Shown here: positions 22,705 to 39,014 of the stretch, in pieces
Position numbering within the stretch: position 1 is the first letter of the stretch
Layout of the letters: every line of letters starts with the position of its first letter
Source: Pirellulales bacterium
GTDB lineage: Bacteria; Planctomycetota; Planctomycetia; Pirellulales; UBA7805
DNA length: 60,551 bases
NCBI GenBank assembly: GCA_030751095.1
Contig: JASMGX010000001.1
Coordinates: 1 to 60,551 of the forward strand
Direction: 5' to 3'
Translations under genes and position numbers: made by a program
Notes under the pieces: generated by a model
Database searches by the model: none
What the model was told of the DNA's origin: nothing
The model's input: only the letters and a program-made list of their open reading frames with translations

Positions 22705-22777
22705 GGGGCGGTAGCTCAGTTGGGAGAGCGCTGCGTTCGCAATGCAGAGGTCGAGGGTTCAACTCCCTTCCGCTCCA
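22705..22777 (+). tRNA. tRNA-Ala (anticodon CGC)
   Basis: 73-nt cloverleaf folded by hand: acceptor GGGGCGG/CCGCTCC with the G3:U70 alanine identity pair, D stem GCTC/GAGC, anticodon stem CTGCG/TGCAG with loop TTCGCAA, 5-nt variable loop, T arm GAGGG-TTCAACT-CCCTT, discriminator A. No encoded CCA. Confidence 0.9.
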
Positions 22778-22945
22778 CTTGATGTCAAAGTCATGCCTCG
22801 AACAATTTAACCTGCACACCCCGGCTCAGGTCGCACGCAAGGCCGGCACAATCTCCGCGCGGGCCGCAACAATCGCCGGCGCAATGCCGGCAAGCAGACC
22901 GATATTCGCCGCGATCAGCAGACCCCAAAGCACCACACGCAGCGA
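22728..22945 (+). repeat. Left copy of the ~218-bp imperfect direct repeat (tRNA-Ala 3' two-thirds + spacer + ABC permease 3' end)
   Basis: Gap-free hand alignment with 34817-35034 at a constant offset of 12089. I counted about 25 mismatches in 218 positions: 4/50 in the tRNA part, 10/48 in the spacer, 11/120 in the permease part. The first ~76 nt of the permease part have only 2 mismatches. Confidence 0.85.
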
Positions 22946-22985: not shown

Positions 22986-25900
22986 TCAGACAGCAGCGGC
23001 TCGGCGAGAAAAGAAAAAGATCACCAGTCCGGCGATGATCATGAGGAGACCTGCAAAAGGGAAGATGCAGGTCAACAGGCTGGCGAGTCCCAGCACAATC
23101 AATATCAGTGAGCCTCGGCGGTCGCCGAGCGCAGAGAGGACGCCGCGGCGGATCCAGCGGATCAAAATCAGGGCCAGGACCACGACACCGACAACCCACC
23201 CGAGCGCTATCAGACGGTCGAGCAGCGGCGTGGAGATGGTCCGCGCGCTAATTTGGGCGTTGCCGCGAGGGGTTGTGAACAGGTAGAGGTCGCCCCGCGC
23301 AGGGATCGTAACCTCAAGACTCGCCATCCCGCCAATCGAAGGTCCACCGGTCGTCGGCAAAGCTGCGTCCTGCGGACTTTCTTCCAGGTCCGCTCTAGCG
23401 ATCTCGGCGGGTTCAGGGATCTTCCCCTCCTTGCGTGCTCTTTTCTTTTTGGCCTTGCCCTTCCGACCGCCAGCCTTGCCGCCGGGTTTGTCCTGATTGG
23501 ATTGTTGTGCTTCGAGTTTTTCCTGGTAGCGGCGGGCGTTGTTCTTGGTGCTTTCGATGTCCGACTCGGGGCGATAGAGGAAACCAGAATCTCCGCCATC
23601 ACCGCCGATAACGCCACCGCCGATGCCGCCCTGCCCGCCTATCTCACTTTTTTGGATTTGGCCTTTTTGGATCGAGTCTGCAAAAAGATCTGCTTTTCCG
23701 CCGACCTTGTTGGAGGTTTTATCGGGGTCTTGCGCAACCTGATAGCGACCGGCCTGTTGGGCGGGGGCGGGGGCAGCCAGTTCGCTTTGGCTCTCTTGGC
23801 CGCCCTCTGCCGAGAGGAAACCATCACGATCCAACTCGTTTCCCACCAACCACTTTTCGTTGAATCCCCGGTCGACTGGACGCTCGGCATCATTGATTCT
23901 GCCACCGATCCTCCAACCATTTTCCAACTGTTTCAGCTCGCCATCAGCGTTCCAGTTACGGCCCGTGTCCTGCACGACATTCGAAGCCCGGTCGTTGCGT
24001 TGGGCTCGCCACGCCTCGTCCAAGCGACTGCGGTTGTCAACCGTGTCGATTGTCGCGTCCACGACGTCCGCCTTTTCCAACTTGTCCCCAACAAGGTCCC
24101 GCCAAGTGGCGTTCAGATCGACATTTTCGCTGAGTTCCTGATTTAAATGCCTTTCTTCCTGCTGGTTGATCAATTTATTGTTTTCTGCCATCAGTCCACT
24201 CGAATTCGCGATCGCCCTGGCCCTGGCGTAATCGTCATCGCCACTGAGGACCTCGGCGAGTTTTTGTAGTTGTCTTGTGTTGTAAGCTACCTGGCCCGCT
24301 GCATGGTCTGCTTCGGTCACCAGTTTCATGTCGCCACCAAAGTCGAACCAAGAATGGTTTTTCGGCAAGTAGAGCCGCACCTGGCTCGTCTCGACGTTGA
24401 TATTGACAGTATGAATCAGCGGAAAACCGACCGTGCCCAGGTTGCCAAGCGACCCGAGTGTACCCCCATATTTGAGAATTACGGCGTAGTCCTGGTCCCC
24501 CTTGGCAGTTTTGATGAGCGGGATCTGCAGCTTGGCCGCGCCGCCGGTTGCAGGCTCTTCGATAGGTTTAACGGGCTCACCCGCCACCGTGGCGGACCAG
24601 AGGTGGGCTCCGGTGGGCAGGGCGATTTCTAAAAACTGCTCGGTTTCGTTATCGAGACGATATTCCTGAACGCCACGAAAGGCACCGCTGCCATCGACAA
24701 CGAGCTGGGTCCGCGCGAGGCCAATCGAAGCGCGGGCTGTTTCGACCGCTTTGCGCTCGCGCGTCTTGAAGGTCAATTCAGCGGTGTCGGAACCTTTGCG
24801 GACGACATAGGCCAGGGTAAGCCCCTCGCCGAGCAACGCGGCAAGCTCTCGCCATTGCTGCTGCTGTCGATTGAGCACCTCCAGGCCACTGTGCTGCTCA
24901 ACCACCAGTTCGTCTCGACCTGCATTTTCGAGGACCACGAATCGACGCCTGGTCTGCCCTGTCTGAACCACAGGGATCGGCGCCGTATGGAGGCCTTCGG
25001 TCAACAGATGGTCGTGAACGATCTTGACGTCGAACTGCCCCTTGAGATCGTCTTGCAGGTCGAGCTGCACGCGGACGAGTGGCTTGCCAGCGACGGGCGT
25101 GACCGTCGTTTGCCTGAGTTGCGGGGCACTGATCCGAGCCTGCTGCATCGATTCAGGCAATAGAAAAACAACCTGGCGAATCCCGGCATCGCTGATACTG
25201 AAATCGAGCAGGATGGTTTCTTCAATGGTATTTTCAGTGATTTTCGTGTTCGTAATGGTGCGGCAGGTCACTTTGGGCTGGCGACGGGTGAAGGCAAGTG
25301 ACCCGGCATAGTCGGCATTGCGGGCACGAAGAACCAGCCTTGCCAACTCGCGTTGCTGCCGCTGGATTAGCCAACTGTAAACACTCTGCGGCAATACATT
25401 TTGGCAATTTTGTAGATTTGCTGCGCGGACTTCGTAGGCCGGATCGACCTGAAGGACAATATCGCTTTCCTGATGGTCAACGCCCAAGATCGATAATTGT
25501 GGCAGCTCAAAAGTTTTTTTGTCGGTACCACCCTGAATCGTACCGCCGATGAAGACAGGAAAATCGCCCCTCCGACCCTCGCCCAACTGGATACTCAATA
25601 CGCGTTTGCCCTCTTCCTCAGCCACCGACCACTGAAACGGCTCCGGCGCGCGGACACGGTTATTCAGCTCCAGGCCCTCCGGAAGCACGATCTTCAAGCG
25701 AAAGATTTTTCGACGTTTCACCCGATATTGGATCCGGCTCTCAAGCGTCGTTTCTCTTTGGGCGACGCCGAGGATCGATTGCACGGTGGCCGATGTCTCC
25801 GCAGTGATTTGTGCGTCCGAGAGTCCAATTTGAAACGGCGTCGAAACAAACCGATACGTCTGGTAGGGCTGGATGCCGAGCGGACTCTCTTCAGCTCCGA

Positions 25901-28900
25901 TCACCGCGGCCAGGCGGGTCGCGGCTTGATCCGAAGCATCGGTTCGTGTCGCGCCCGCGAGCTGGGTCGTCTGCAATTGCAGGATCGGGCTACGGCGAAC
26001 GGTCAGCTTGCCCCGGTGCAGTGCAGCTCCGGTGACCATGACGTTGGGAACATCAAACGGGGATACCTGCTGTTGGCCCACGGCCCGATGCTGTGAAAGT
26101 TGGATCGTAACGCTCTGCTGGCCTTGAGACGCTTTCAACAGCGTGATCTCCACCTGCTGGGTATCGCCCACTGTTTTGGCTTGCCAATTACGAACATTGT
26201 CACCCACAATTCGTTCGAGCAGATACTCTTTTGGAACGGCGATCGTGAACGAATCGCGTAAGGTCCGGCCAAAGTCGACCTGGAGGCGCCACATCAGGAA
26301 AAGACCATCTTCGCGGACATCAAATACGGCTTGGGAGTTGGCAGTCAGGGTGCGGTCGATCGCTCCCTCGGCCACCGTCGGTCGCCATTCGATCTGCAAC
26401 AACCCATCTGCGGCGAGGACTGTTTCGATCGTTTCGTTGTTTTTGGTGGTCTCGTAAGTCTTGCGGTCGGCGGCGGCCGGCATGCGGATTTCGGTCTTGG
26501 CCAGCGGAACTTCGAGCGTCAGCGCCGTCGCCGGGGAAAATGGAATGTTGCCCGAGAGCAATCGCCATCCGCCACGACGCTCCAAGGGCAAACGAACCGC
26601 CACGTCGAGCCGATGCCGCCCTTTTCCGGACGCCAAGAGTACGACCAGCGGCCGTTGTGGCCGTTGGGAGACCGCCGGGCCGGCCCGCTGCGCTTTTTTC
26701 GTCTTTTGAACATTCGCGTGGCGAAGCTGTGGGACTTGGGCAGGAGCATTCGTCGCGGCCGGGTCGGCTGCTGAGATGAATCTCAGCCGGGCCGGCTGTC
26801 CGTCAAGCTCCGCTTCGGTCAACACACCCCCAGCCAGTGCCAGCGGCACGGAGACGACGTCATCGTCGGTGAACAGATCGACATCCACCGAGCCACGGAC
26901 GAGGAGAAATGTATCTCCTTCCAATCGAGCGGAGAATGCTCCACCCGAGAGGGCGAATTTGGCCGTCTGCTCCGCGACCTCGATTTTTTTGTCCGGGTGC
27001 GCCTGGTTCCAAAGTTTCACATACTGGTCGTAAGGGACCAAAACCTTTTCCGCTTGCTCAGCCCGGGAATCGATCCCGACCCCATCGCCAACATTGTAGG
27101 GGATGATGATTGCGTCGCGCGGTATCTTGACCGGCTCCGGAGGTGGCGCGATCTGGACGATCACCGGCGGCGCGGCCTCGGAAATTGCCGAAATCGTAAT
27201 GAACAACAACAGGATCGTCGCCGTGACCGAACGGGTACCTCGCGTTGGCCGACGGCCGCAGCATTGATGAGCAAACCAGCGGAGGATTCCGACAAACAAG
27301 TAGTAGGGAATCAACAGACAGGCGGTGAAAAAGGCAACGTCAAACGAGTCGCCAAGCTGGTTGGTCCAACCCGTTATGAGCGGCACCAGGCTACTGATCA
27401 GGATGACAGCAACGAGGTAACGCGTTTTGGTCCCCACCGGTCGCCGGGTCAGGAGAAGGCCGACCAGCAGGATCGCCAGCCCGATGGCGGCAGCAAAAGA
27501 CTGAACGCGATTTTTCTCGATGAGTTTTACTCGCAGGAGCGGGTCGACACCGAGGCTCTGGAATGAAATGTCTTTAGCCGATTTTTCGGGTAGATCGATT
27601 TGCAGACTGCTGAGACCTTCCAGGGCCCAGCTGCCTGTTGTTTTTGACTTGAAATATTTCCCGGACCTGGGCGGTACGCTCCGTGTGCTGGCCCTTCCTC
27701 CGTAGGCACGAGAGCCGAAGGCAGAGGCAGAGCTCGGTTCTGCTTCTTCTAATAGATCCATTTCTTCTGTTGTTACTTCCATTTCTTCTATTTCATCTAT
27801 TTCGTCCAATGCAAATGCATCGACGTCGGAATCCTCCGCTATTTCGATCGTCAACTCTCCCCTACCCGAGCTCAAACGCTCTCTTTCTGCAAAATCCTCG
27901 GCTGCCCTGCGACTTGATTCCCTCACACTCTGTATGCTCGAGAGCATAACGAATGGCTGAAACCCTCCGGCCAGGTAATACAGGGTCCGGACGACGGCCG
28001 CTAATGGTGAGGGTCTTTGTTGAGCCTGACTGAGAAACACCGTCCCTGCCGAACTGGCAACACGGTAACCGGCAGGTAGTTGCAAGCTCCACTGGACGTC
28101 GGCGACCGGGACTTCCGCCCGCTGCCGGTCGGGAGCAGACCACAAGTAAAGTTTTGGAGCAGCCAGTTCGACCGTCCCCATCAGGCCCAACACATCCGAC
28201 GGTGTCTCGAAGACAACCTGTAGTTTCCGCACCCCAGCGGTCGTTTTTGCAGGGAGGCTCAACAGCAACCGCCGCGATTCCCGTTGCGGCTTGATCGGTT
28301 CCCCGTCCAGAAACGCAGACCAGAGGCTCGACCCGGGCGGAAGTTCAATTTCCAGGTAGGAAGCCTTGGTCCTCAACTGATAGCGAGCGACCGTCTGGCT
28401 GATGCCATCGGCACCGATCGCGGTCACCAACTCAGCACGCTCGATGATCGCGCCGGGCAAACCGTATCCCGGATGGCGAAAGACGTTGATCTTGATATCG
28501 GCCTTTCCCCCACCGTAGGCGTAGGCACCGAGCAGCCGGGGACCGGGCAGGTACTCGGCGGCGGAGAGTTCTCCCACGTCAACCTCTCTGGCGGTCGTCA
28601 CCACCTGCACATCGAGTTCCGGGCTCCCCTCCACGGCAACGTGGCCCGATTGGAATGCCACGTCAACGGCTGCAATCAGCGGCAACGGCAGATTTTTCGG
28701 TTCTTCCGACTCAAGCCGCTGCAAAAAATCGACGGCCAGGCGAATGTGGCCACGGCGGCGCTGGGCCAACAAAACCGTCCAGCGTCGCACGCCGCCGGTA
28801 AGCTGGCTGCTGAATTCCTTCAACGCAGCACCGTCCATCCCCTGGATCGAGATGGAGTCGGGCGTGTCGGCGGGCAACTCGACGATGAGCTTGCGAACGC

Positions 28901-30863
28901 CAGCCTGCTGGACCAGGAAATCGACCTCGTAGTGCGCTTTGAGACTGTCGGGCAACACGGTTAAAAATGAATACGTGCGGGCAGTGATCCAGGGATCACG
29001 CCGCTCGACGGTTAAACTGGCTCGATAGGGCTGGCGGTCGTAGAAATAGGCGAGCGCTGTGGGAACGTCTGCCAGGCCATACCTGGCCCGGTCTTGTTGA
29101 TTCAAGGGAATCAATCCTTCGATCCGGTCCGCGCGCACGATCAGATCATCCTGGGCGACGACCGCCAGGGCACCGATGTCCTGAACGGCGTTGCGGACAA
29201 CAAAGGCTGGAAAAGTCAGCTTGTTCTGCTTCCAGTCGTTGAGCCAATTTTCTGGTACCGAGACCGCGGCGATTTGAAAAACAGTCGGCACCCGGACCGG
29301 AGCCCCCTTGGGGACGCGGATGCGGAGCAGCGAGGCGGTATCCCCCTCTTCTTGTTCGTGTAGCACCACCTGCCCATCGGCACCGCGAACGCTCGTCACG
29401 TGCCAACCTTTCGGCATCTCGATTTCCAGTTCAAAAAGTCGCTCGGCGGTCGGAACGACGGTAAAACTGGCGCGCAACGCCAACTCGCTTTCCGAAACCG
29501 TCAGCATCAGGTTCGAGACAACCTCGTGTTGCGCGGGCGGTTGGACGAAGCGGGCAGTCAGTCCGTAGTCCGCTTGGGGTGCGAAGTAGGTGACAATCGA
29601 GCGAATCGCAGGAGCCCCCGGTTCGGTCTGCAGGACGCTTTTTGGAATACTCCACATGAGCACCTGATTTTCGATCGTAATCAACCCGCTGGCGGTGATT
29701 TGTTCGGCATCGAGCCGCTCTTCCGCCACGAGCCCGACGACCGCGACCTGGCCGGCGACATCGAGCGGAGTCAAACGCGGCAATTGCCAATCATCCAGCG
29801 CCACTGCCGTTTTGATCAGCACAATATTCATGGAAACGGTACCCGCTGCCGGCTCGCGGAGTTTGACCGTCAGCACCCTTTGAGCATCTTTCCCCTCTAC
29901 CGCCCATTGGGCCAATAGTGGCGACTCGACCTGGCTGACCTCAAACCCGTCTGGCAGCGCAAATCGAAATTGTGCCGCTTCGCCGTAGAGCACGCTCATC
30001 GAGACCTGGGCGTGCAGGCGTTCGTAGGCCTTGGTGACTTCGTCCACAAGGACGCTGCGTGCCACGACAACCTGCCGCGTCTGGGCCGCTCGGTTATTGA
30101 GCGACATGACCACCGATAGCGGGCCACCTGGCGGGAGCAGCTCAAGTTCTGTGGTGTCGGCGGTCAGCTTGCGGCTCACCACCGCCGCGCCGCTTTTTAC
30201 TTCCACGTTTCCCGGCACGACGAGTTGCAATTTCGTGCTCGGTGGCGTCGGGACCTGGATGTTCAACGCCTGTTCGGCAGCAGAGGCCTGCAGCGGCGCA
30301 AGCAGATCGAGCACTAACGTGTGCTGGCCACGTCCTTCGACAAACAATACGATCCGGCCGTCCGGTCCCCTGGCCAACGGTGCCGGTGTCTTGTCGAGCG
30401 TCGCGGCGCGGATACCGACGCCGCTGAAACGTAACGGCAACTGTTGCAGTCCATCTTCCAGCACATCGACCTGCAACGTGCCGGTGATTCTCGCTCTGTC
30501 CTGTTTCAAGCTCCCCTTGTAGAGGGCCGACAAGACAAGCGCCTTGACAGGCGGCGGTTCGCCGGGCGAAGTGCGGACGCGGGCCAGCATCTCTTCGTAT
30601 TGCTGGCGTTTCATGAAAACCCGCCGCACGCCGCTCTTTAGAATGACGTTCAAGTCTTCGAACGGGACGAAGATTTCACGCACGACTTCGGGTTGTTTGG
30701 TCGGTGGTGGTGCGGCCGGGGCAGGCGCGATGTTGGCGAGCAGCACGAGGAGAAAAAGCAACCGCTTGTGACTACCGCAGCGTGCCGGAGTGAACGTTTC
30801 TCTGCGACTGGAGGTCACAGCCACCATTCTGCAACCGCAAACCGAGGAAAAAAACCTAGCCAT
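22986..30863 (-). CDS. Giant (~2625 aa) envelope protein made of two tandem paralogous modules with TM clusters; function unknown
   Basis: Uninterrupted 8-kb ORF. The preferred ATG at 30863 (MARFFSS...HKRLLFLLVLLANIAPAPAAPPP) overlaps the upstream gene stop by 8 nt; the track start at 31031 is TTG. Module A is nt ~27200-30863 and module B is nt 22986-~27190. A central TM cluster lies at ~27190-27510 and there are three C-terminal TM helices. Each module is alignable by eye to the 1195-aa neighbour. Confidence 0.75.
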   Translation of the reverse strand: MARFFSSVCGCRMVAVTSSRRETFTPARCGSHKRLLFLLVLLANIAPAPAAPPPTKQPEVVREIFVPFEDLNVILKSGVRRVFMKRQQYEEMLARVRTSPGEPPPVKALVLSALYKGSLKQDRARITGTLQVDVLEDGLQQLPLRFSGVGIRAATLDKTPAPLARGPDGRIVLFVEGRGQHTLVLDLLAPLQASAAEQALNIQVPTPPSTKLQLVVPGNVEVKSGAAVVSRKLTADTTELELLPPGGPLSVVMSLNNRAAQTRQVVVARSVLVDEVTKAYERLHAQVSMSVLYGEAAQFRFALPDGFEVSQVESPLLAQWAVEGKDAQRVLTVKLREPAAGTVSMNIVLIKTAVALDDWQLPRLTPLDVAGQVAVVGLVAEERLDAEQITASGLITIENQVLMWSIPKSVLQTEPGAPAIRSIVTYFAPQADYGLTARFVQPPAQHEVVSNLMLTVSESELALRASFTVVPTAERLFELEIEMPKGWHVTSVRGADGQVVLHEQEEGDTASLLRIRVPKGAPVRVPTVFQIAAVSVPENWLNDWKQNKLTFPAFVVRNAVQDIGALAVVAQDDLIVRADRIEGLIPLNQQDRARYGLADVPTALAYFYDRQPYRASLTVERRDPWITARTYSFLTVLPDSLKAHYEVDFLVQQAGVRKLIVELPADTPDSISIQGMDGAALKEFSSQLTGGVRRWTVLLAQRRRGHIRLAVDFLQRLESEEPKNLPLPLIAAVDVAFQSGHVAVEGSPELDVQVVTTAREVDVGELSAAEYLPGPRLLGAYAYGGGKADIKINVFRHPGYGLPGAIIERAELVTAIGADGISQTVARYQLRTKASYLEIELPPGSSLWSAFLDGEPIKPQRESRRLLLSLPAKTTAGVRKLQVVFETPSDVLGLMGTVELAAPKLYLWSAPDRQRAEVPVADVQWSLQLPAGYRVASSAGTVFLSQAQQRPSPLAAVVRTLYYLAGGFQPFVMLSSIQSVRESSRRAAEDFAERERLSSGRGELTIEIAEDSDVDAFALDEIDEIEEMEVTTEEMDLLEEAEPSSASAFGSRAYGGRASTRSVPPRSGKYFKSKTTGSWALEGLSSLQIDLPEKSAKDISFQSLGVDPLLRVKLIEKNRVQSFAAAIGLAILLVGLLLTRRPVGTKTRYLVAVILISSLVPLITGWTNQLGDSFDVAFFTACLLIPYYLFVGILRWFAHQCCGRRPTRGTRSVTATILLLFITISAISEAAPPVIVQIAPPPEPVKIPRDAIIIPYNVGDGVGIDSRAEQAEKVLVPYDQYVKLWNQAHPDKKIEVAEQTAKFALSGGAFSARLEGDTFLLVRGSVDVDLFTDDDVVSVPLALAGGVLTEAELDGQPARLRFISAADPAATNAPAQVPQLRHANVQKTKKAQRAGPAVSQRPQRPLVVLLASGKGRHRLDVAVRLPLERRGGWRLLSGNIPFSPATALTLEVPLAKTEIRMPAAADRKTYETTKNNETIETVLAADGLLQIEWRPTVAEGAIDRTLTANSQAVFDVREDGLFLMWRLQVDFGRTLRDSFTIAVPKEYLLERIVGDNVRNWQAKTVGDTQQVEITLLKASQGQQSVTIQLSQHRAVGQQQVSPFDVPNVMVTGAALHRGKLTVRRSPILQLQTTQLAGATRTDASDQAATRLAAVIGAEESPLGIQPYQTYRFVSTPFQIGLSDAQITAETSATVQSILGVAQRETTLESRIQYRVKRRKIFRLKIVLPEGLELNNRVRAPEPFQWSVAEEEGKRVLSIQLGEGRRGDFPVFIGGTIQGGTDKKTFELPQLSILGVDHQESDIVLQVDPAYEVRAANLQNCQNVLPQSVYSWLIQRQQRELARLVLRARNADYAGSLAFTRRQPKVTCRTITNTKITENTIEETILLDFSISDAGIRQVVFLLPESMQQARISAPQLRQTTVTPVAGKPLVRVQLDLQDDLKGQFDVKIVHDHLLTEGLHTAPIPVVQTGQTRRRFVVLENAGRDELVVEQHSGLEVLNRQQQQWRELAALLGEGLTLAYVVRKGSDTAELTFKTRERKAVETARASIGLARTQLVVDGSGAFRGVQEYRLDNETEQFLEIALPTGAHLWSATVAGEPVKPIEEPATGGAAKLQIPLIKTAKGDQDYAVILKYGGTLGSLGNLGTVGFPLIHTVNINVETSQVRLYLPKNHSWFDFGGDMKLVTEADHAAGQVAYNTRQLQKLAEVLSGDDDYARARAIANSSGLMAENNKLINQQEERHLNQELSENVDLNATWRDLVGDKLEKADVVDATIDTVDNRSRLDEAWRAQRNDRASNVVQDTGRNWNADGELKQLENGWRIGGRINDAERPVDRGFNEKWLVGNELDRDGFLSAEGGQESQSELAAPAPAQQAGRYQVAQDPDKTSNKVGGKADLFADSIQKGQIQKSEIGGQGGIGGGVIGGDGGDSGFLYRPESDIESTKNNARRYQEKLEAQQSNQDKPGGKAGGRKGKAKKKRARKEGKIPEPAEIARADLEESPQDAALPTTGGPSIGGMASLEVTIPARGDLYLFTTPRGNAQISARTISTPLLDRLIALGWVVGVVVLALILIRWIRRGVLSALGDRRGSLILIVLGLASLLTCIFPFAGLLMIIAGLVIFFFSRRAAAV

Positions 30864-33800
30864 CGGCCCGGCCTCCTTCCGAAGAGCCGCCTGAGGGTTC
30901 GTCACCGTCGTCACCGTCAGACCCTTCTTCCGGTTCCAACTCGGGAGGAGATTCGCTACTTTTCCCCTCTCCCTGCTTCTCGGTCTCTCCCGGTATCTCC
31001 CCCTCTTCGTCTCCCGATGGTGCATCCGCAACGATGCCTGCCGTCACAACATCGCCTCGAGGTGGATTGCGCCTCGATGCGAGCCTCGGCAGGTCCCGGA
31101 TCACAAACCAGACACCCCAGAGGATGAGCACGATGGCGAGCGCCCAAAATAACACGCCCCGCAGCACCTCACCCGAGAGCGTTGGCAGGAAGACACCCAT
31201 CAGGATCAAGGCGATTACCAGAACGGCCAGCGCCGTGAACTTCTCCGAAACGCGCCGTCGAATCATCACCAACCCGATCGCCAGGACAGCGAAGAAGACA
31301 ATCGACTGAAACCAGTTTTCGTTCATGGTCACTAAACAAAGCGCGCCTTTTTTACCACCCGGTGGCTGAAGTGTTGAGAACAGATAGAGTTGACCGGCGA
31401 CAGAGAAGGTGTCCGTAATGTTGCCCTTCTGTTTTGTGCCCGTGGCGACTTCCTCGAGCAATTTCTTCACCCTCTTGCGGGAATTGGATAACGGGTGGAA
31501 GCGCCACCAGGGGGGCTGCTGGTTGGTCCACGGTCCGCTGACCCCCAACAAAACCTGCTCGTCCGGCACGTATGCGCACAAGTAGACATTTTGCACCGCG
31601 GGTTCGTCCGGAAAAGAGGGTACCTGCAGGTCTCGGGCCGAACCTGTTTGCGTATAATTCAGTTCCAACAGGAAGGTGTCTTTTGCGTCGAGACCTACCA
31701 GCGGTATGTAGTAGTTGTCTTTGCCACCACTTTCCAGTGGCACGGACTGGCCGTTGATTCTTACCGGCTGTGCATCAAATTCCGGCTTGTTCTCGTTGTT
31801 CGTGGGGAGCACCAATTTGATGCGTTGCCGCGCGCTTCGCATCCGGTAACGGGCTTGCACGGCAACCTGGCCGGAGCGGGTGATGACCTGGCGGACGACC
31901 CCCATTTCGATGCTCGTCCGTTTCACTGCTTCCAGTTTGTACCGCGTGGCTTCCAGGATGAGCTTCCAATCGTCATAAAATTCGAACGCCAGGGCGGCAC
32001 CTTCAAGACGGTCTTTTTGATCAATGTCATGCTGCGGGTCGACCGGACGCAAGCGGTCCACCTCGCTCGGTCGTACGTCGATCGTTTCGCTCTTGGCGAC
32101 CACGATCTGTCCCCAGGCCAGATCGACACCGGAGGGCTTCAGCGACGGCACGACGATCGACACCGGCTTGCCGACTTCCAGGTCGCTCATGTTCTGCTCC
32201 CACTCGAAACCGACGACCACCTCGCCAAGCAGTTCGGTCTCGCCTGCCAGCTCCATGGCGACATAGCCTTCGCCGACATCCTTCGGCTGTGTCTGCATCC
32301 GCACCTGGCGAATGGCCGGCGTGGTGTTGTTCATTTTTTCGATCAGGTCCGCCGGCACGTCGATCCTCAACGACTCGACGCCGCTGTAGCGAATCAAATA
32401 GTAGAAGCGGGAAACATATTTGACTTGGCCCGACTTGATTTCCACAGTCAGTAGCTGGCGGACGGTGATGTGTGGCTTTCGCCTTTCCGCTTGGACAACG
32501 AGCGAGACCGCTTGGTCGGTGAACGCAAAGGCCAGGGAAGGTTTGGCTTTGGGAAACCGTGTGTCGCGGCAGGTGGGGATCTTCTGATAAGCTGCAGCGA
32601 TGGAGACACTGCGAAGCCCTTCCTGCTTCAATGGATTGACTTTCAGGCTCTCCGGTTTGCAGATCACCAGCCTGCCGGTCGACCGTTCCACACTCGCAGG
32701 TGCAACGCGCGGGATGGACAACTTCATTTCCGAAGCCTTGCCCGTAGGGCTCAGCAGATTCGGGTCCTTGAGCCGCTTTTCAAGCTCGAGGAAGAGACCG
32801 ACTTTGCCAATCGCCTTGCGAGCCAGATTGACGATCAGTTTCGTTTTATCATCCTCGTCGATATCGTAGTTATCGACATGGACGGGCGTTGCGCCGGGTG
32901 CTGCCCGTCCGCTCACCCGCCGGACCTGATAACCTGCCGGGATATCGATGTCGAACTGAAAGAGACCTGCCTTTTTGATGTTGTACAACACCAGTAAATC
33001 GAGCGTTAGTTTGTCCGGCTCCAGATACACTTCGACAAGCTGGTCCGCAACCACTCTCGGCTGAATCTTCTCAACGTCCATTTTTAGATCGAAGGGCAGA
33101 GCGGCGTAACGGTAGGCGAAGTTCCACCGGTCAGGTCCGATCCTGCGAGGCAGTTCGGAGGCGTCGAGTTGCAACAATCCACTGCGACTGATCCCTTCGG
33201 CGCGAAGACCTGCGCCCAAGCGGACAACTACGATCCCTTGTTGCCGGCCAACATCGAGCGCTTGTACCACCGGGACGACAAACTGTTTCTTCTCAAACTC
33301 GCCGACAAATTTTTCGAGTTCCACGGTCAGATTTTGTTTTCCCCGAGTCGGCTGAAAAAGCTGGATTGTGATCTGTTGGGTTTCCCCTTCGGTTTTGACA
33401 TCCCACTGGCGGACATTTGCGTCAAAGACTCCGGCCACTTTTTGGTCCGCGGGCACTTCGATGCGGAGTTGAGACAAATCGGCCCGGGTGATCTCATATC
33501 GCAATTGAGATCGGGTCCGGACAACACCCTGGTCCAGAGTCACCTGCTGTTCCGCCTGCACCGTGGCCAGAGCGGCCAGGCCGAGCGCACCTTCGGCCTT
33601 GGGCGTCCAATCAATCCGAACCATAGGCGCCGCGCCGAGAAAGGCCATCACCACCGTCTCTTTCGCATCGCTCTCGTCCTTGTTTGGGACCTCGGCGGCT
33701 GCAATCATCGGCTTGACGTTGACCTTCACGCCCGCTTCCGGGATCCGGATCTGCCAGCGGTTCACCGCCGCCTGGGGAGCCTGGATCGCCACACTGTTCT

Positions 33801-34383
33801 GACCCGGAGCCTTGGTGTAGGTCTTGGAGTACTGTAACGAAAGCTCAATTTTTTGCGGGTCGTTCTTTTCCTTCTTGACGAGCAACTTGTATCCGTTCTT
33901 GCCGATCAGCCGAGCGGGCTGGCCATTGAGTTGTGCCTCCGCGATCGCCGCGTTGTTGAGCCTCAAGGGAATCTCGTGCCAGCCGTCGGTCAACAATTCA
34001 ATTTTGAGACTGGCGTCGACCGAGATCACGTCCTCATCAATCGTTGCTTTACTTTCAATTTCGGTAATCACCGCTCGGACCGGCGGTCCCTCGTCCGGCA
34101 CCCGCCTCTCGGCCGCCCGAGCAGCTTTCCACAACGCCTGGAACTGGTCGTACGGCAGAAACACTCCGCGTCCATTCTTCTCGAACGAGTCGCGCAGTTT
34201 GGAATACGGTACGTAGATCGTCTGTTCGCGGAGTACGGAATCTTTCTTGTCGTCTTTAGCCGATTCTTCCGACGCCGGTTGCGCCAGGGCGATGGAACTG
34301 AGAAAAACCGACAAGACCACCGACAAGACCAGCGCCACACCAGCAGCGCAATAGAGGGAACGCGTAGCGGGGGTTGAGATCAT
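30856..34383 (-). CDS. Giant (~1175 aa) envelope protein, single module paralogous to the two modules of the downstream gene; function unknown
   Basis: The ATG at 34383 (MISTPATRSLYCAAGVALVLSVVLSVFLSSIALAQPA) is preferred over the TTG at 34443. A long beta-rich region is followed by three C-terminal TM helices (IVFFAVLAIGLVMI, ALAVLVIALILMGVFLPTL, VLFWALAIVLILWGVWFVI) and an acidic Gly/Glu/Asp tail. Confidence 0.75.
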   Translation of the reverse strand: MISTPATRSLYCAAGVALVLSVVLSVFLSSIALAQPASEESAKDDKKDSVLREQTIYVPYSKLRDSFEKNGRGVFLPYDQFQALWKAARAAERRVPDEGPPVRAVITEIESKATIDEDVISVDASLKIELLTDGWHEIPLRLNNAAIAEAQLNGQPARLIGKNGYKLLVKKEKNDPQKIELSLQYSKTYTKAPGQNSVAIQAPQAAVNRWQIRIPEAGVKVNVKPMIAAAEVPNKDESDAKETVVMAFLGAAPMVRIDWTPKAEGALGLAALATVQAEQQVTLDQGVVRTRSQLRYEITRADLSQLRIEVPADQKVAGVFDANVRQWDVKTEGETQQITIQLFQPTRGKQNLTVELEKFVGEFEKKQFVVPVVQALDVGRQQGIVVVRLGAGLRAEGISRSGLLQLDASELPRRIGPDRWNFAYRYAALPFDLKMDVEKIQPRVVADQLVEVYLEPDKLTLDLLVLYNIKKAGLFQFDIDIPAGYQVRRVSGRAAPGATPVHVDNYDIDEDDKTKLIVNLARKAIGKVGLFLELEKRLKDPNLLSPTGKASEMKLSIPRVAPASVERSTGRLVICKPESLKVNPLKQEGLRSVSIAAAYQKIPTCRDTRFPKAKPSLAFAFTDQAVSLVVQAERRKPHITVRQLLTVEIKSGQVKYVSRFYYLIRYSGVESLRIDVPADLIEKMNNTTPAIRQVRMQTQPKDVGEGYVAMELAGETELLGEVVVGFEWEQNMSDLEVGKPVSIVVPSLKPSGVDLAWGQIVVAKSETIDVRPSEVDRLRPVDPQHDIDQKDRLEGAALAFEFYDDWKLILEATRYKLEAVKRTSIEMGVVRQVITRSGQVAVQARYRMRSARQRIKLVLPTNNENKPEFDAQPVRINGQSVPLESGGKDNYYIPLVGLDAKDTFLLELNYTQTGSARDLQVPSFPDEPAVQNVYLCAYVPDEQVLLGVSGPWTNQQPPWWRFHPLSNSRKRVKKLLEEVATGTKQKGNITDTFSVAGQLYLFSTLQPPGGKKGALCLVTMNENWFQSIVFFAVLAIGLVMIRRRVSEKFTALAVLVIALILMGVFLPTLSGEVLRGVLFWALAIVLILWGVWFVIRDLPRLASRRNPPRGDVVTAGIVADAPSGDEEGEIPGETEKQGEGKSSESPPELEPEEGSDGDDGDEPSGGSSEGGRADG

Positions 34384-34866: not shown

Positions 34867-35034
34867 CTTGATGGCAAAGTCATACCTCTAACCGCCTAGC
34901 CTGCAGACTCCGGCTCAGGTCGCACGCAAGGCCGTGACAATCTCCGCGCGGGCCGCAACAATCGCCGGCGCAATGCCGGCAAGCAGACCGGAAATCGCCG
35001 CAATCAACAGGCCCCAGAGCGCCAGACGCAGCGA
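34817..35034 (+). repeat. Right copy of the ~218-bp imperfect direct repeat (tRNA relic + spacer + 3' end of the intact permease gene)
   Basis: See the left copy at 22728-22945: same order, same orientation, no gaps. Confidence 0.85.
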
Positions 35035-36057
35035 CGGCGTGAAGGCGATCGTGACCGCCTCGGCACCGACCGAGAGACTGCTTAACTGCAACATCCCCAT
35101 CGCAAGCCCCACGCCCAGTACCCCGCCCGCAACGCCCAACACGAGACTTTCGGTCACCACAAGCCAAAAAACCTTCGGCCCGGAAAAGCCGATCGTCTGC
35201 AATAAGGCATGCTCGCGAATCCGGTCCTGCACCGACATGATCGTGGTCGTGGCAACAAGTGCGAGCACCAGACCGACACAGGCGTAACCGAGGTAGTGGG
35301 CCATGCCAATCAATTCCGCCAGATCGCCGAGACTGCGGGCCTGAAATACCCCCTTGGGCCGCGTGTCGGTCTCGACAGGGCCACCCTGAAACAGCTCGTC
35401 GACCTCTTCGGATTTGGCGACCGGGTCGACCCCCTCGGCGAGCAGGGTTTCGAGCTGCGTTACCGTCCCGACAAGATTCTTGCCCTTGCTCCGCTGCAAA
35501 AATTCGAGATGCGAGTAGATGTAATTCTCCTCCGCCGGGTCGCTGCTCTCAAAAATGCCCGCCACGTTCACGCTCAAATCGCCAATCGAAAACTTGCTGC
35601 CGACATTGAGATCGCGCCGCGCCGCAACCGCCCGGCCGATCACCGCGGCATCCTGGTGCTTTTCAAACTCCTCCCAACTCCCGGCGCTGAGCGTAAAATC
35701 GCGCGCGGGGCGGAGTTTCTCCGGCGGCACGCCGTAAAACACGACCACATCGAGACTCGCCCGGCAGTTGTTCGTAAAAACCTGAATCGGCACCACCTGC
35801 CGCACGCCATCGAGCTTGGAAATCTGTTGTTCGTAATCCTGCGGCAGATTGCTCGTCGCCGGGCAGAACTTGTTGGCCTGGAAGGTGATGAGCGAACCTT
35901 TCGCCCCCTGCTGGCGATGGATGGCGTTCATCCCCTCCTGCACCGCGCCCACAAAGCAGAAGACAAACAGCGCAACGGCCGAACCGCTCACCGTGAGCAG
36001 CGTGCGAGAGCGATGCCGCCAGAGCGTCTTGCCAATGTAGGGAAAAAATTTGATCAT
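34915..36057 (-). CDS. ABC transporter permease, FtsX/MacB-type (4 TM plus periplasmic domain)
   Basis: 380 aa. N-terminal TM (RTLLTVSGSAVALFVFCFVGAV), a ~200-aa periplasmic domain and a C-terminal three-helix FtsX-like bundle. Last gene of the efflux operon. Confidence 0.85.
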   Translation of the reverse strand: MIKFFPYIGKTLWRHRSRTLLTVSGSAVALFVFCFVGAVQEGMNAIHRQQGAKGSLITFQANKFCPATSNLPQDYEQQISKLDGVRQVVPIQVFTNNCRASLDVVVFYGVPPEKLRPARDFTLSAGSWEEFEKHQDAAVIGRAVAARRDLNVGSKFSIGDLSVNVAGIFESSDPAEENYIYSHLEFLQRSKGKNLVGTVTQLETLLAEGVDPVAKSEEVDELFQGGPVETDTRPKGVFQARSLGDLAELIGMAHYLGYACVGLVLALVATTTIMSVQDRIREHALLQTIGFSGPKVFWLVVTESLVLGVAGGVLGVGLAMGMLQLSSLSVGAEAVTIAFTPSLRLALWGLLIAAISGLLAGIAPAIVAARAEIVTALRAT

Positions 36058-36072
36058 CGTTATTTCACTCCG

Positions 36073-36801
36073 TTAGTGGCCGGACGCCTGGACCTGGTAA
36101 GCGTCGGACGTTTCCAGACCCACCCCACCTGTCTGCACGAGCCGGCCGTGGTCGAGATGGAATTGTTTGTCGGCCGCCAAGGCCACCTCGGTATCGTGCG
36201 TGACCATCAACAGCGTCACGTTCAACTGCTCGTTTAATCGCTTTAAAAGGTCGATGATCTGTCCGGACGTATCGGGATCGAGGTCTCCGGTCGGTTCGTC
36301 CGCCACCACCACTTTGGGGTGCGCGACAATCGCCCGGGCAATCCCGACCCGCTGTTCCTGGCCACCGGAAAGCTGGCGGGGATAGTGCTCAGCGCGGTCG
36401 CGCAACTGGACCGCATCGAGGGCGATCTCTACCCGCTTGCGCCGCTCGCTTCGGGGCATCGGCAGCAGCAGCAGCGGCAACTCGATGTTTTCGTATGCGG
36501 TCAGGACGGGAACCAGATTGTGCGTCTGAAAAATGTAGCCCATGTTGGCCGCACGCCAGCTCGCCAATTGGGTTCGCGAAAGGCTGGTGATGTCGACTCC
36601 ATCGACCACAATCGTGCCGCTGTCGGGCCGGTCGATGCTCGCCACCAGGTTCAGCAGCGTCGACTTGCCCGTACCGCTGGCGCCCATGAGTGCGAGAAAC
36701 TCCCCCTCTTCGACAGAGAGCGTGACCCCATCGAGGGGCGTAATGGTCTCGTCCCCCTTGTGGTATTGCTTGGTGACATTGTTGATTTCGATCAAAGACA
36801 T
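36073..36801 (-). CDS. ABC transporter ATP-binding protein (MacB/LolD-like)
   Basis: Walker [10 protein letters not shown], signature [14 protein letters not shown], Walker [13 protein letters not shown]. The start overlaps the adaptor gene stop (TAATG). Confidence 0.95.
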
Positions 36802-38420: not shown

Positions 38421-38429
38421 GATGATCTA

Positions 38430-39014
38430 TCAATCCTGTTTTACAAAGATGTGTGTGGCAAGGATGGTGAGGTTGCCGGTCTTGTCCCGTTCGGCTTTGC
38501 CTTCGACGACGACCGTCGAAAGTTCCTTCACGCCAAGCAATTGACGCGCATCCTCTTTGACGAGATTGCCCTCACCATCGACGACTTTCACCAGGGCGGT
38601 GCCCGTCGGCAACTTGTCTGTCTCACAACAGTAATCCCAGGGAATGGGGCAGGCGTCTCCGGGGATATCGCTGCACGCCTTGAGCGACCGGTCGACGATA
38701 CTGAACGCCGCCCGGTTTTCAATCCAGGGGTTGGCGCTGCCACCGATGCGGCCCACAACCACGACCGGTTCACCGCTCTTGGCCGTTTCCCGAGCGCCAA
38801 TGACATCGTTCGCCTTCGGCGGTTCCTGGCCTAAAATATATTTTAGCCCGCCAGCCGACGGGGTTGGCGCGGCCGTCTTACCGCTCTCCTGCGAGCAACC
38901 GACCACAAAGAACAGGCCCACGATCGCGAAACTAATGATTGCACTTCTCACTGTATTGACTCCTTCAAAAATTGTTGTGTTCCAGCGGCTTCGTACCGCC
39001 GGCGAAAATTCCAT
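38430..39014 (-). CDS. Lipoprotein of unknown function with a Cys motif, embedded in the efflux operon
   Basis: Lipobox LFFVVGC. The ATG at 39014 overlaps the upstream permease stop (ATGA). An alternative GTG at 38951 is preceded by GAAGGAG 8 nt upstream. Cys motif: KACSDIPGDACPIPWDYCCETD. The 386-aa track ORF extension overlaps the permease gene and is Arg/Gly-rich, so it is rejected. Confidence 0.6.
   Translation of the reverse strand: MEFSPAVRSRWNTTIFEGVNTVRSAIISFAIVGLFFVVGCSQESGKTAAPTPSAGGLKYILGQEPPKANDVIGARETAKSGEPVVVVGRIGGSANPWIENRAAFSIVDRSLKACSDIPGDACPIPWDYCCETDKLPTGTALVKVVDGEGNLVKEDARQLLGVKELSTVVVEGKAERDKTGNLTILATHIFVKQD

What the first reader, a model, noticed from the sequence alone, without database searches (positions are those of the whole stretch)
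22986..34383. Two translationally coupled giant genes encode three paralogous ~1100-1300 aa envelope modules of unrecognised family
Seen in sequence:
- The 1175-aa product and both halves of the ~2625-aa product share one architecture: an N-terminal signal or anchor, a very long beta-rich region, a bundle of about 3 TM helices, and a charged low-complexity tail.
- They also share alignable blocks. Near the N-termini: IYVPYSKLRDSF..VFLPYDQFQALW / IFVPFEDLNVIL..VFMKRQQYEEML / IIIPYNVGDG..VLVPYDQYVKLW, followed by the pattern V.A.I....Y.G.I......I...L.V.V/L.DG...IPL.
- Mid-module: W.V......Q.ITI.L.Q...G.Q..TV.L...... P.V..LDV.RQQG.VVV.
- Just before the last TM bundle: SL.I.LP..G....F...G...I.
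- The genes overlap by 8 nt (ATGGCTAG).

Inference: I recognise no catalytic, adhesin-repeat, vWA, AsmA/TamB or secretion-system signature. The pair therefore looks like a three-module hetero-oligomeric envelope-spanning assembly of unknown function.
Basis: partly seen in the sequence, partly recalled or inferred. Interest (0 to 1): 0.8.

Follow-up and report, generated by a model that had tools for sequence, protein, structure and literature searches.

The report
Conserved planctomycete giant membrane-protein gene pair
Two overlapping giant genes encode three related, membrane-anchored proteins that fill the space between the two cell membranes; the pair recurs almost unchanged in hundreds of Planctomycetota genomes, yet belongs to no described protein family and its function is unknown.

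Summary
Gene A (34383..30856, minus strand, 1175 aa) and gene B (30863..22986, 2625 aa) overlap by 8 nt. Together they encode three full-length paralogous modules (profile-profile E 7e-41 to 3e-35, about 1000 aligned columns each).

Each module has a Sec-type signal peptide, a highly conserved N-terminal motif and five beta-sandwich domains. Three of those domains are internal ~180-aa repeats. A disordered linker, a beta-hairpin and a three-helix membrane anchor follow. Almost nothing faces the cytoplasm.

Pfam, NCBIfam, PADLOC and PDB sequence profiles give no family. Structure search gives only fold-level matches: ribophorin I/OST1, the VIT-containing protein ITIH1, the M1-aminopeptidase N-domain and integrin legs.

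The A-B pair is adjacent in all 85 related loci, and all the complete B genes recovered are fused. The junction carries a GGAGG Shine-Dalgarno in 71 of 73 distinct sequences and the 8-nt overlap in 74 of 82. No neighbouring gene is conserved. A orthologs stay about 50% identical between Pirellulales and Phycisphaerae.

New here: the middle of B looks like an internal signal peptide (AxA site in 26 of 32 orthologs), so B is probably cut into two proteins.

Best reading, at low confidence: a 1:1:1 passive structural complex on the periplasmic face of the cytoplasmic membrane. Function is untested.

The parts
30856..34383 (-). Gene A, 1175 aa (module A)
   Evidence: ORF and translation. 841 or more homologs of about 1170 aa. 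AlphaFold2 model with mean pLDDT 80.
22986..30863 (-). Gene B, 2625 aa (modules B1 and B2 fused)
   Evidence: ORF and translation. Full-length orthologs of about 2450-2930 aa (one 3504-aa variant).
30856..30880 (-). Coupling junction: Shine-Dalgarno GGAAGGAGG (30880..30872), B start ATG (30863..30861) and A stop TAG (30858..30856), an 8-nt overlap
   Evidence: Sequence. The 8-nt ATGnnTRR overlap is in 74 of 82 loci. An SD-like core lies at -22..-4 in 71 of 73 distinct junctions, against 14% in controls.
34279..34383 (-). A signal peptide (aa 1-35, ALA|QP site)
   Evidence: Hydropathy. An AxA motif precedes the N-motif in 29 of 40 orthologs.
34108..34233 (-). A N-terminal motif (aa 51-92, REQTIYVPY...GRGVFLPY..F..LW), the most conserved segment
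   Evidence: 20 of 42 columns are at least 90% conserved. Counterparts exist in B1 and B2.
31519..34086 (-). A periplasmic ectodomain, five beta-sandwich domains D1-D5 (aa 100-955). D2-D4 (aa 270-816) are internal repeats.
   Evidence: AlphaFold2 secondary structure and pLDDT. hhalign D2/D3/D4 probability 88-98%. Foldseek.
31321..31395 (-). A pre-membrane beta-hairpin (aa 997-1021)
   Evidence: Strands 998-1004 and 1015-1021, block-mean pLDDT about 83. The motif is conserved in all three modules.
31075..31320 (-). A three-helix membrane anchor (aa 1022-1103)
   Evidence: Hydropathy. Helices in the model.
30859..31074 (-). A cytoplasmic acidic disordered tail (aa 1104-1175). Only G1170 (invariant) and G1171 (at least 90%) are conserved, and they are encoded by the SD for B.
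   Evidence: pLDDT about 30. Conservation. SD consensus.
30705..30863 (-). B N-terminal signal peptide region (aa 1-53)
   Evidence: Hydropathy. n-h-c layout in orthologs.
27984..30686 (-). B1 N-motif plus ectodomain (aa 60-960), with three repeat copies at aa 270-440, 475-623 and 622-798
   Evidence: hhalign to the A profile, E=7e-41. Repeat hits.
27630..27983 (-). B1 acidic low-complexity periplasmic linker (aa 961-1078)
   Evidence: Sequence. Unconserved, 100-168 aa in orthologs.
27279..27629 (-). B1 pre-membrane hairpin (aa 1079-1115) and three-helix anchor (aa 1119-1195)
   Evidence: Helices in the second model.
27165..27278 (-). Short basic cytoplasmic loop plus internal signal-peptide-like segment (aa 1196-1233, ...ISEA|AP). 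Probable signal peptidase I site separating B1 from B2.
   Evidence: An AxA motif at the end of the hydrophobic region in 26 of 32 orthologs. Background rates. Hydrophobicity like the N-terminal signal peptides.
24309..27131 (-). B2 N-motif (aa 1245-1290) plus ectodomain (to about aa 2185)
   Evidence: hhalign. AlphaFold2 of aa 1075-1500: strand-strand-helix motif and D1 at pLDDT about 90. Foldseek.
23334..24308 (-). B2 coiled-coil-like and low-complexity periplasmic stretch (aa 2186-2510)
   Evidence: This stretch is the site of the spurious 20-30 aa DUF1559 hit in some orthologs.
23001..23333 (-). B2 pre-membrane hairpin (aa 2511-2545) and three-helix anchor (aa 2550-2621)
   Evidence: Aligned with the B1 anchor by hhalign.

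Best explanation
What it is. The pair is a self-contained two-gene cassette of an undescribed protein family, found in Planctomycetota.

How the products are made. Ribosomes that finish gene A restart on gene B, through a Shine-Dalgarno sequence in A's last codons and an 8-nt start/stop overlap. B carries two modules in one chain. The three homologous modules are therefore made in equal amounts.

Module layout. Each module is exported by a Sec signal peptide. The third module uses an internal signal peptide in the middle of B, so B is probably cut by signal peptidase I into B1 and B2. Each mature module is a chain of five beta-sandwich domains of about 900 residues. It carries a very conserved N-terminal motif and is held in the cytoplasmic membrane by a C-terminal three-helix anchor. 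Only short loops and one disordered acidic tail face the cytoplasm. No catalytic, nucleotide-binding or ion-conducting feature was detected.

Most likely mechanism. A, B1 and B2 assemble 1:1:1 into a passive structural complex on the periplasmic face of the cytoplasmic membrane. It would act as a scaffold, spacer or tether that organises the unusually large planctomycetal periplasm.

Shown: the genes, the paralogy, the predicted topology, the fold class, the conservation, and the coupling signals.
Inferred: the cleavage of B, the hetero-oligomer, and the structural role.
For: - Paralogy over the full module length, with three internal repeats per module.
- Topology follows the positive-inside rule, and no charged residue lies inside any TM helix.
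- The ectodomain is all-beta at high confidence.
- Only fold-level structural matches, all to non-catalytic beta-sandwich domains of membrane-anchored or extracellular proteins: ribophorin I/OST1, integrin alpha legs, ITIH1 and the M1-peptidase N-domain.
- No profile hit in Pfam, NCBIfam, PADLOC or PDB.
- A and B are adjacent in 85 of 85 loci, and all the complete B genes recovered are fused. The overlap is conserved in 74 of 82 loci and the SD in 71 of 73.
- No flanking gene family occurs in more than 5 of 82 loci.
- Conservation is uniformly high across all five ectodomain domains (majority fraction 0.65-0.79). It is lower in the TM helices (0.52) and absent in the cytoplasmic tail (0.27). 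The constraint therefore lies in the periplasmic part.
- A orthologs are about 50% identical between Pirellulales and Phycisphaerae.
- The internal signal peptide is supported.
Against: - No interaction between the modules was computed or measured.
- An AlphaFold2 test of one possible head-to-tail contact (B1 hairpin with the B2 N-motif) gave no confident fold for the hairpin.
- Uniform 50% conservation over 900 residues is more typical of a machine with many specific contacts than of a mere spacer.
- Absence of a recognisable catalytic domain is negative evidence only.
- The AxA site sits in an Ala-rich stretch, where AxA is common (58% of windows with at least 4 Ala).
- No hit in the top lists comes from a cultured strain or a complete genome, so no phenotype data could be linked.
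Confidence: 0.4

Rival explanations
1. Ribophorin-like accessory platform. The modules sit beside a membrane-embedded enzyme or the Sec translocon and handle exported substrates in the periplasm, as ribophorin I does next to the oligosaccharyltransferase.
For: OST1/ribophorin I chains are among the best Foldseek matches for both models (6s7o_E at E=2e-8; 6s7t_E at rmsd 7.4). Both have the layout of tandem beta-sandwiches followed by a C-terminal membrane anchor. High conservation fits specific partners.
Against: Sequence identity is 8-12% and TM-scores are low (0.12-0.31). The same fold is matched in integrins, ITIH1 and M1 peptidases, so the match is to a fold, not a family. No conserved partner gene lies nearby. 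The size is 3 x 5 domains against 2 in OST1.
Confidence: 0.15
2. Envelope-spanning tether. The conserved N-terminal motifs at the far ends of the ectodomains bind peptidoglycan or an outer-membrane partner and tie the cytoplasmic membrane to the outer layers.
For: The N-motif is the most conserved segment, and it is modelled at low confidence in isolation, as expected for a part that folds on a partner. Five-domain chains plus 49-300 aa flexible linkers could reach far.
Against: No peptidoglycan-binding or outer-membrane-targeting domain was detected. The pre-TM hairpin appears to fold only with its own ectodomain (modelled as two confident strands in full-length A, against pLDDT 38-54 when modelled without it). 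The linkers may therefore be loops rather than leashes. No partner is known.
Confidence: 0.2
3. Periplasmic conduit for lipids or other cargo, functionally like AsmA/TamB/YhdP or the Lpt bridge.
For: The products are giant, inner-membrane-anchored and beta-rich, with very long strands of about 25 residues in the repeats.
Against: No AsmA, TamB or DUF3971 Pfam hit at E<=1 in A, B or 40 A orthologs. Those proteins are absent from the listed top 50 of 170 and of 122 Foldseek matches with E<=0.001. The matched folds are closed sandwiches. The anchor is C-terminal with three helices, not N-terminal.
Confidence: 0.07
4. Accessory of the MacB-type ABC exporter encoded immediately upstream (34915..40177).
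For: Same strand, directly upstream in this window: FtsX/MacB permease, HlyD adaptor, ABC ATPase, FtsX/MacB permease.
Against: Neither of the two FtsX permeases nor the HlyD adaptor is found in any of the 85 related loci. ABC ATPase matches occur in 5 of them, at 26-38% identity. About 470 nt and a tRNA fragment separate the last FtsX gene from gene A.
Confidence: 0.03
5. Cargo of a mobile or defence island integrated at tRNA-Ala.
For: The cassette is bracketed by tRNA-Ala(CGC) at 22705-22778 and a direct partial copy of its 3' part at about 34816-34920.
Against: No gene other than A and B lies between the two copies, so no integrase. GC content is like the rest of the window. No tRNA lies next to the cassette in 42 of 43 other loci. 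No PADLOC hit. The family is deeply conserved and the repeat similarity runs past the tRNA 3' end.
Confidence: 0.02

Closest known systems
Ribophorin I / OST1 (subunit of the eukaryotic oligosaccharyltransferase)
   Same: Tandem ~200-aa beta-sandwich domains on the non-cytoplasmic side, followed by a C-terminal membrane anchor. Among the best Foldseek matches for both models.
   Different: Two domains and one TM helix, against five domains and three helices. Identity is 8-12% and TM-scores are 0.12-0.31. The Pfam Ribophorin_I model does not hit. No oligosaccharyltransferase gene lies in the cassette.
Integrin alpha-chain legs (thigh, calf-1, calf-2)
   Same: A string of beta-sandwiches ending in a membrane anchor and a short cytoplasmic tail. 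Integrins work as an obligate hetero-oligomer (my own knowledge). Best Foldseek E-value, 1.5e-8.
   Different: No beta-propeller or FG-GAP head. TM-score is 0.14-0.17 with rmsd above 20 A, so only the domain type is shared.
VIT-containing protein ITIH1 and the N-terminal domain of M1 aminopeptidases / LTA4 hydrolase
   Same: Best structural matches for domain D1 of module B2 (6fpz_A at E=1e-5; many M1 peptidases). Also matched by the A model (4gaa_A, 219 columns, rmsd 5.7).
   Different: Fold-level only, at 5-16% identity. No vWA domain, no zinc-peptidase domain, and no Pfam VIT or Peptidase_M1_N hit.
AsmA/TamB/YhdP-type giant inner-membrane-anchored periplasmic proteins
   Same: Very large, beta-rich, anchored in the cytoplasmic membrane and facing the periplasm.
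   Different: No Pfam or NCBIfam hit. Absent from the listed top 50 Foldseek matches for either model. The anchor here is C-terminal with three helices, and the domains are discrete sandwiches rather than one continuous groove.
BatD and the aerotolerance (Bat) operon proteins
   Same: Signal peptide, beta-rich periplasmic part and a C-terminal membrane segment (layout recalled from memory).
   Different: No BatD hit at E<=1. One single A ortholog gave a weak BatA_N hit in its TM region. No MoxR, DUF58 or vWA neighbours in the 82 loci.
Cytochrome b-c1 polyprotein FbcH of Bradyrhizobium (my own knowledge, not checked here)
   Same: A bacterial membrane polyprotein split at an internal signal peptide. 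This is a precedent for the proposed processing of B.
   Different: Unrelated proteins. Cleavage of B is only predicted.

Membership tests
AsmA/TamB-like lipid transporters | Match to AsmA, AsmA_2, TamB or DUF3971 profiles | tested here: not met
   No Pfam or NCBIfam hit at E<=1 for A or B, nor for 40 A orthologs.
AsmA/TamB-like lipid transporters | Continuous beta-taco groove fold with an N-terminal anchor | tested here: not met
   The model shows discrete beta-sandwich domains and a C-terminal three-helix anchor. No such structure appears among the 50 listed matches of either Foldseek search.
BatD / aerotolerance operon | BatD profile match | tested here: not met
   No BatD hit at E<=1.
BatD / aerotolerance operon | Operon with MoxR ATPase, DUF58 and vWA proteins | tested here: not met
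   Neighbours differ in every locus inspected. No flanking family occurs in more than 5 of 82 loci.
DUF4139/DUF4140 proteins | Profile match to PF13598 or PF13600 | tested here: not met
   No hit at E<=1. More sensitive profile-profile search against Pfam was not available.
Alpha-2-macroglobulin-like proteins | MG, A2M or thioester domain profiles, or a matching fold | tested here: not met
   No Pfam hit for A, B or the 40 A orthologs. No A2M or complement chain appears among the 50 listed matches of either Foldseek search. One 3504-aa B variant (P0141) has an inserted SQHop_cyclase_C-like stretch; this is not general.
VIT-vWA proteins | VIT plus von Willebrand A domains | tested here: not met
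   D1 resembles ITIH1, a VIT-containing protein, at fold level only. No VIT or VWA profile hit.
Ribophorin I / OST1 | Ribophorin_I profile match and association with an STT3-type transferase | tested here: not met
   Fold similarity only. No profile hit. No family of any kind recurs next to the cassette; STT3-type genes were not searched for specifically.
MacB-type tripartite ABC exporter (as accessory) | Conserved linkage to MacB/FtsX, HlyD and ABC genes | tested here: not met
   FtsX and HlyD are found in 0 of 85 loci; ABC matches occur in 5 of 85.
Mot/Tol/Exb/PorLM-type energised periplasmic machines | Conserved acidic residue inside a TM helix and a cytoplasmic partner domain | tested here: not met
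   No charged residue lies inside any of the ten hydrophobic segments. The cytoplasmic exposure is limited to short loops and one unconserved tail.
Anti-phage defence systems | Match to PADLOC models | tested here: not met
   No hit.
This new A-B family itself | A-type gene followed by a fused B1-B2 gene, with an SD plus overlapping start/stop | tested here: met
   The window matches the consensus junction aGGAGG..ATGnnTAR and the module order seen in 85 loci.

The most novel reading that the evidence does not exclude
The cassette encodes the core of a planctomycete-specific periplasmic superstructure. It would be a 1:1:1 assembly of three ribophorin-I/VIT-like multi-domain proteins that shapes or holds the enlarged periplasm, for example by setting membrane spacing at invaginations or forming the base of crateriform structures. 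Gene B would be a bacterial membrane polyprotein matured by signal peptidase at an internal signal peptide.
Probability: 0.15. Interest if true: 0.85.

Novelty: categorically new. Interest (0 to 1): 0.62.

Why it matters
- Planctomycetota have an unusual envelope: a very large periplasm, an invaginated cytoplasmic membrane, and cell division without FtsZ. The structural determinants of this envelope are largely unknown.
- This is an 11.4-kb cassette that stays about 50% identical between classes of the phylum. It is always built the same way, sits in the cytoplasmic membrane, and puts about 3000 residues of conserved beta-sandwich domains into the periplasm.
- That gives a concrete, testable candidate for part of that architecture.
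- The family has 5045 clusters at 50% identity in public data and no annotation, so a large block of 'hypothetical' sequence could be named at once.
- The predicted internal signal-peptidase cleavage of B would be a rare case of polyprotein maturation in a bacterial membrane protein.

Tried and rejected
1. Head-to-tail docking. I tested whether the B1 pre-membrane hairpin docks on the B2 N-motif, using AlphaFold2 on B residues 1075-1500. The hairpin stayed unfolded (pLDDT 38-54), so there is no support for this contact.
2. Three-gene arrangement in L003. It is a frameshift artefact. The 'B1' C-terminus is out-of-frame Arg/Gly-rich sequence and 'B2' starts mid-module.
3. Weak family names on orthologs.
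   - DUF998 is the name NCBI gives the window's own protein.
   - DUF1559 is a 20-30 aa hit in the B2 coiled coil.
   - DUF4131, DUF5693 and Bax1-I hits lie in the TM region.
   - All are short or below cut-off and were rejected.
4. Link to the upstream MacB-type exporter. Rejected by synteny.
5. tRNA-flanked island. The geometry is real, but there is no integrase, the composition is normal, and the arrangement is not seen elsewhere.
6. Conserved third gene. All-against-all clustering of 572 flanking ORFs of at least 80 aa found none.
7. Literature. Five searches found no description of the family. The terms covered crateriform structures, cryo-ET, envelope and division.
8. Essentiality in Planctopirus limnophila (PMC10632474). 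The stored supplement is cut and its first part holds only raw insertion sites. No ortholog from a cultured strain surfaced in the hit lists.
9. Relatives outside the family. The listing limits (best 120 or 150 hits) are filled by orthologs, so the roughly 1600 clusters with E between 1e-10 and 1e-3 could not be inspected.
10. Promoter, terminator and Rfam scans of the flanks gave nothing useful.

Full report
**What is at the coordinates**

Two long ORFs lie on the minus strand. Gene A runs 34383..30856 and encodes 1175 aa from the ATG. The ORF could formally start at a TTG at 34443. Gene B runs 30863..22986 and encodes 2625 aa.

The B start codon and the A stop codon overlap as ATGGCTAG at 30863..30856. 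GGAAGGAGG lies 9-17 nt upstream of the ATG. GC content across the pair is 0.57-0.60, like the rest of the window.

**The three modules are real paralogs**

I split B at residue 1209 into B1 and B2.
- BLASTP, A vs B1: E=2e-28 over 856 aa at 21.6% identity.
- BLASTP, A vs B2: E=3e-24 over 938 aa.
- BLASTP, B1 vs B2: several colinear pieces, down to E=1.7e-7.

Ortholog profiles (40 A and 32 B sequences) make the relationship unambiguous with hhalign.
- A-B1: E=7e-41, 998 columns, covering A residues 18-1101.
- A-B2: E=1.5e-36.
- B1-B2: E=2.8e-35, 1100 columns, reaching through the membrane anchors.

**Anatomy of a module**

Hydropathy and the positive-inside rule give each module the same layout:
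- an N-terminal hydrophobic signal;
- about 900-1000 aa outside the cytoplasm;
- three TM helices, with basic loops on the inside.

Module A then ends in a 72-aa acidic disordered cytoplasmic tail. B1 returns to the outside through a fourth hydrophobic segment that starts B2.

The AlphaFold2 model of A has mean pLDDT 80, and most blocks in the ectodomain are at 85-95.

| Element | Residues in A | Note |
|---|---|---|
| Signal helix | 6-33 | |
| N-motif | about 51-92 | poorly defined in the model |
| All-beta region | 104-949 | read here as five domains: D1 100-262, D2 270-441, D3 440-636, D4 636-816, D5 820-955 |
| Helix | 966-980 | |
| Beta-hairpin | 998-1021 | |
| TM helices | 1022-1103 | three helices |

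D2, D3 and D4 are homologous ~180-aa repeats (hhalign probability 88-98%). The D3 profile finds three colinear copies in each of A, B1 and B2. Eight of the nine copies score probability 57% or more; the third in B2 is weak.

The charged low-complexity stretches of B1 (median 141 aa) and B2 (about 116 aa of coil plus 188 aa of low complexity) lie on the periplasmic side, between D5 and the hairpin. They are not after the anchor.

No TM helix contains a charged residue.

**No known family, only a fold class**

Nothing meaningful was found in the profile libraries.
- Pfam and NCBIfam at E<=1: nothing for A or B.
- All 40 A orthologs against Pfam: only scattered noise in the TM region.
- A PDB sequence-profile search: empty.
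- PADLOC: empty.

Foldseek of the A model against the PDB gave:
- integrin alpha chains, E=1.5e-8, TM-score about 0.15;
- ribophorin I/OST1, E=2e-8;
- the N-terminal beta-domain of M1 aminopeptidases and LTA4 hydrolase (4gaa_A, 219 columns, rmsd 5.7).

A second model covers B residues 1075-1500. Its Foldseek matches for domain D1 of B2 were ITIH1 (a VIT-containing protein, E=1e-5), M1 peptidase N-domains and OST1.

These are all the same kind of large beta-sandwich, at 5-16% identity. I read this as a fold class, not as membership of any of those families. AsmA/TamB-like and alpha-2-macroglobulin structures are absent from the listed top 50 matches of both searches.

**Distribution and gene order**

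- Gene A has 841 or more homologs of about 1170 aa at roughly 45-65% identity. All are 'hypothetical' and none has a Pfam domain.
- Gene B has 388 or more homologs.
- A full HMMER scan of 1.84 billion cluster representatives found 5045 clusters at E<=1e-3 and 1433 at E<=1e-30.
- A pattern scan of one genome per species found relatives in 330 stretches. The 80 best are almost all labelled Planctomycetota: Pirellulales, Planctomycetales, Thermoguttaceae and Phycisphaerae.
- A Phycisphaerae ortholog is 50% identical to the window's protein.
- The window itself matches a marine uncultured Pirellulales MAG, whose A protein NCBI names 'DUF998 domain-containing'.

In all 85 fetched loci an A gene is followed by a B gene. 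All the complete B genes recovered are fused, at about 2450-2930 aa, apart from one 3504-aa variant. The single apparent split, in L003, is a frameshift artefact.

None of the window's other neighbours recurs. FtsX and HlyD are found in 0 of 85 loci. Clustering of 572 flanking ORFs found no family in more than 5 of 82 loci. The conserved unit is therefore exactly A plus B.

**The junction is a conserved coupling device**

The 8-nt overlap of the form ATGnnTRR occurs in 74 of 82 loci. Most of the rest have a 4- or 11-nt overlap.

In 71 of 73 distinct junctions an SD-like core lies 4-22 nt before the B start. The consensus is aGGAGG, and 63 junctions have a 5-mer. The rate at control positions inside gene A is 14%.

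This explains an oddity in the protein alignment. In the otherwise unconserved tail of A, only G1170 (invariant) and G1171 (at least 90%) are conserved. They are the translation of the SD.

**B is probably a polyprotein**

The fourth hydrophobic segment of B follows a short basic loop. It has a hydrophobic core of about 10-15 residues. In 26 of 32 orthologs it ends in an AxA motif (AFA|Q, ASA|Q, AVA|Q and similar). In the window the site is SEA|A.

About 15-30 mostly Pro-rich residues later comes the B2 N-motif. The N-terminal signal peptides of A and B are spaced in the same way.

- AxA occurs in 9% of all 12-aa windows of these proteins, and in 58% of Ala-rich windows.
- The true N-terminal signal of A has AxA in 29 of 40 orthologs.
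- The 19-residue hydrophobicity of the internal segment (median 1.86) matches the N-terminal signals (1.91-1.99). It is below the ten other TM helices (1.98-2.60).

I infer cleavage by signal peptidase I, giving B1 (with four helices) and a free B2. This is a prediction, at roughly even odds.

**How it most likely works**

The following steps are shown:
- equal-dose production signals;
- export signals;
- cytoplasmic-membrane anchoring by prediction;
- a large, uniformly conserved periplasmic part. The majority fraction is 0.65-0.79 in every domain and 0.79 in the N-motif, against 0.52 in the TM helices and 0.27 in the tail;
- no detectable catalytic or energy-coupling element.

From these I infer a 1:1:1 complex of A, B1 and B2 that acts structurally on the periplasmic face of the cytoplasmic membrane, as a scaffold, spacer or tether. 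Membrane-anchored strings of beta-sandwich domains doing such jobs are known elsewhere (integrin legs; ribophorins). That analogy is from general knowledge, not tested here.

The pre-membrane hairpin is modelled as two strands in full-length A (block-mean pLDDT about 83). It is unfolded when B1's hairpin is modelled without its ectodomain. It probably packs on its own module, which would make the low-complexity stretches loops.

I give this reading 0.4. The high conservation argues for many specific contacts, so a more machine-like role remains open. The rivals are:
- a ribophorin-like substrate-handling platform (0.15);
- a true envelope-spanning tether (0.2);
- a cargo conduit (0.07);
- an accessory of the neighbouring exporter (0.03);
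- island cargo (0.02).

**Limits**

- No interaction, localisation or phenotype data exist.
- Topology rests on hydropathy only.
- AlphaFold DB and HHpred were not available, so a remote link to a described family cannot be excluded.
- No hit in the top lists comes from a cultured strain or a complete genome; the longest contig is 0.87 Mb. Presence in model planctomycetes is therefore untested.
- A few MAGs holding the pair are labelled Anaerolineales or Kiritimatiellia. This may be mis-binning.
- Five literature searches found no description of this family.

**Verdict**

The cassette belongs to no described family or system. Its domains have a known fold class. Interest is moderate to high: a very large, very conserved, unannotated envelope component of a phylum whose envelope is poorly understood, with a testable polyprotein prediction.

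Noticed in passing
window 22705-22778 (+) and about 34816-34920 (+): tRNA-Ala(CGC) lies just past the end of gene B. A partial direct copy lies between gene A and the FtsX gene. It covers the 3' two-thirds of the tRNA plus about 50 nt of its 3' flank; the alignment of the two regions is 83% identical. The cassette is therefore bracketed like an island, but there is no integrase, and the similarity runs past the tRNA end.
   Followed up: partly
window 22322-22819 (-): The 165-aa ORF downstream of gene B is spurious. Its N-terminus is the reverse-strand reading of the tRNA-Ala gene, and the same peptide reappears at the tRNA fragment (74% identity over 31 aa).
   Followed up: yes
window 30859-30880 (-); A residues 1170-1171: The only conserved residues in the disordered tail of A (Gly-Gly) are encoded by the Shine-Dalgarno sequence for gene B. 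This is a nucleotide-level constraint that shows up as protein conservation.
   Followed up: yes
window 19366-22329 (-): A 987-aa fusion of a Kelch/NanM-like (N-acetylneuraminate epimerase) beta-propeller with a sodium:solute symporter. Close homologs (52% identity) also lie within 10 kb of the cassette in two other loci (L021, L026).
   Followed up: partly
window 34915-40177 (-): MacB-type exporter genes: FtsX/MacB permease, HlyD adaptor, ABC ATPase and a second FtsX/MacB permease. A 386-aa ORF (38430-39590) with no Pfam hit overlaps the first permease gene by about 580 nt, so its true start is probably further downstream.
   Followed up: partly
window 3655-17368 (-): Respiratory nitrate reductase cluster: NarG-like 13724-17368, NarH 12126-13619, an unscanned 253-aa ORF at 11365-12126 where narJ is expected, and NarI 10659-11387. 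There are also two MFS transporters (9105-10649, 7479-9098) and a second molybdopterin/4Fe-4S oxidoreductase (3655-6738). A cytochrome c gene lies at 17365-18348.
   Followed up: partly
protein P0141 (B ortholog, 3504 aa): One B variant carries an inserted stretch at about residues 1035-1193 with a weak squalene-hopene-cyclase C-terminal (alpha/alpha toroid) hit. It sits near the B1/B2 boundary.
   Followed up: no
loci L014, L018, L021, L033, L083 (labelled Anaerolineales) and L072 (labelled Kiritimatiellia): MAGs labelled outside Planctomycetota carry the A-B pair at 45-50% identity. Their junction sequences look like those of Phycisphaerae loci. This is either mis-binning or mislabelling, or real presence outside the phylum.
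   Followed up: no
locus L003 13512-21566: Gene B appears split into 1342-aa and 1196-aa ORFs in a long contig (780 kb). The first ORF ends in out-of-frame Arg/Gly-rich sequence, so this is an assembly frameshift or a pseudogene.
   Followed up: yes
window 44878-46374, 48468-50849, 57919-60456 (-): Other genes in the window: an Lcl_C-domain protein with an EF-hand, a heparinase II/III plus alginate-lyase protein, and a PSD1 (DUF1553) protein.
   Followed up: no
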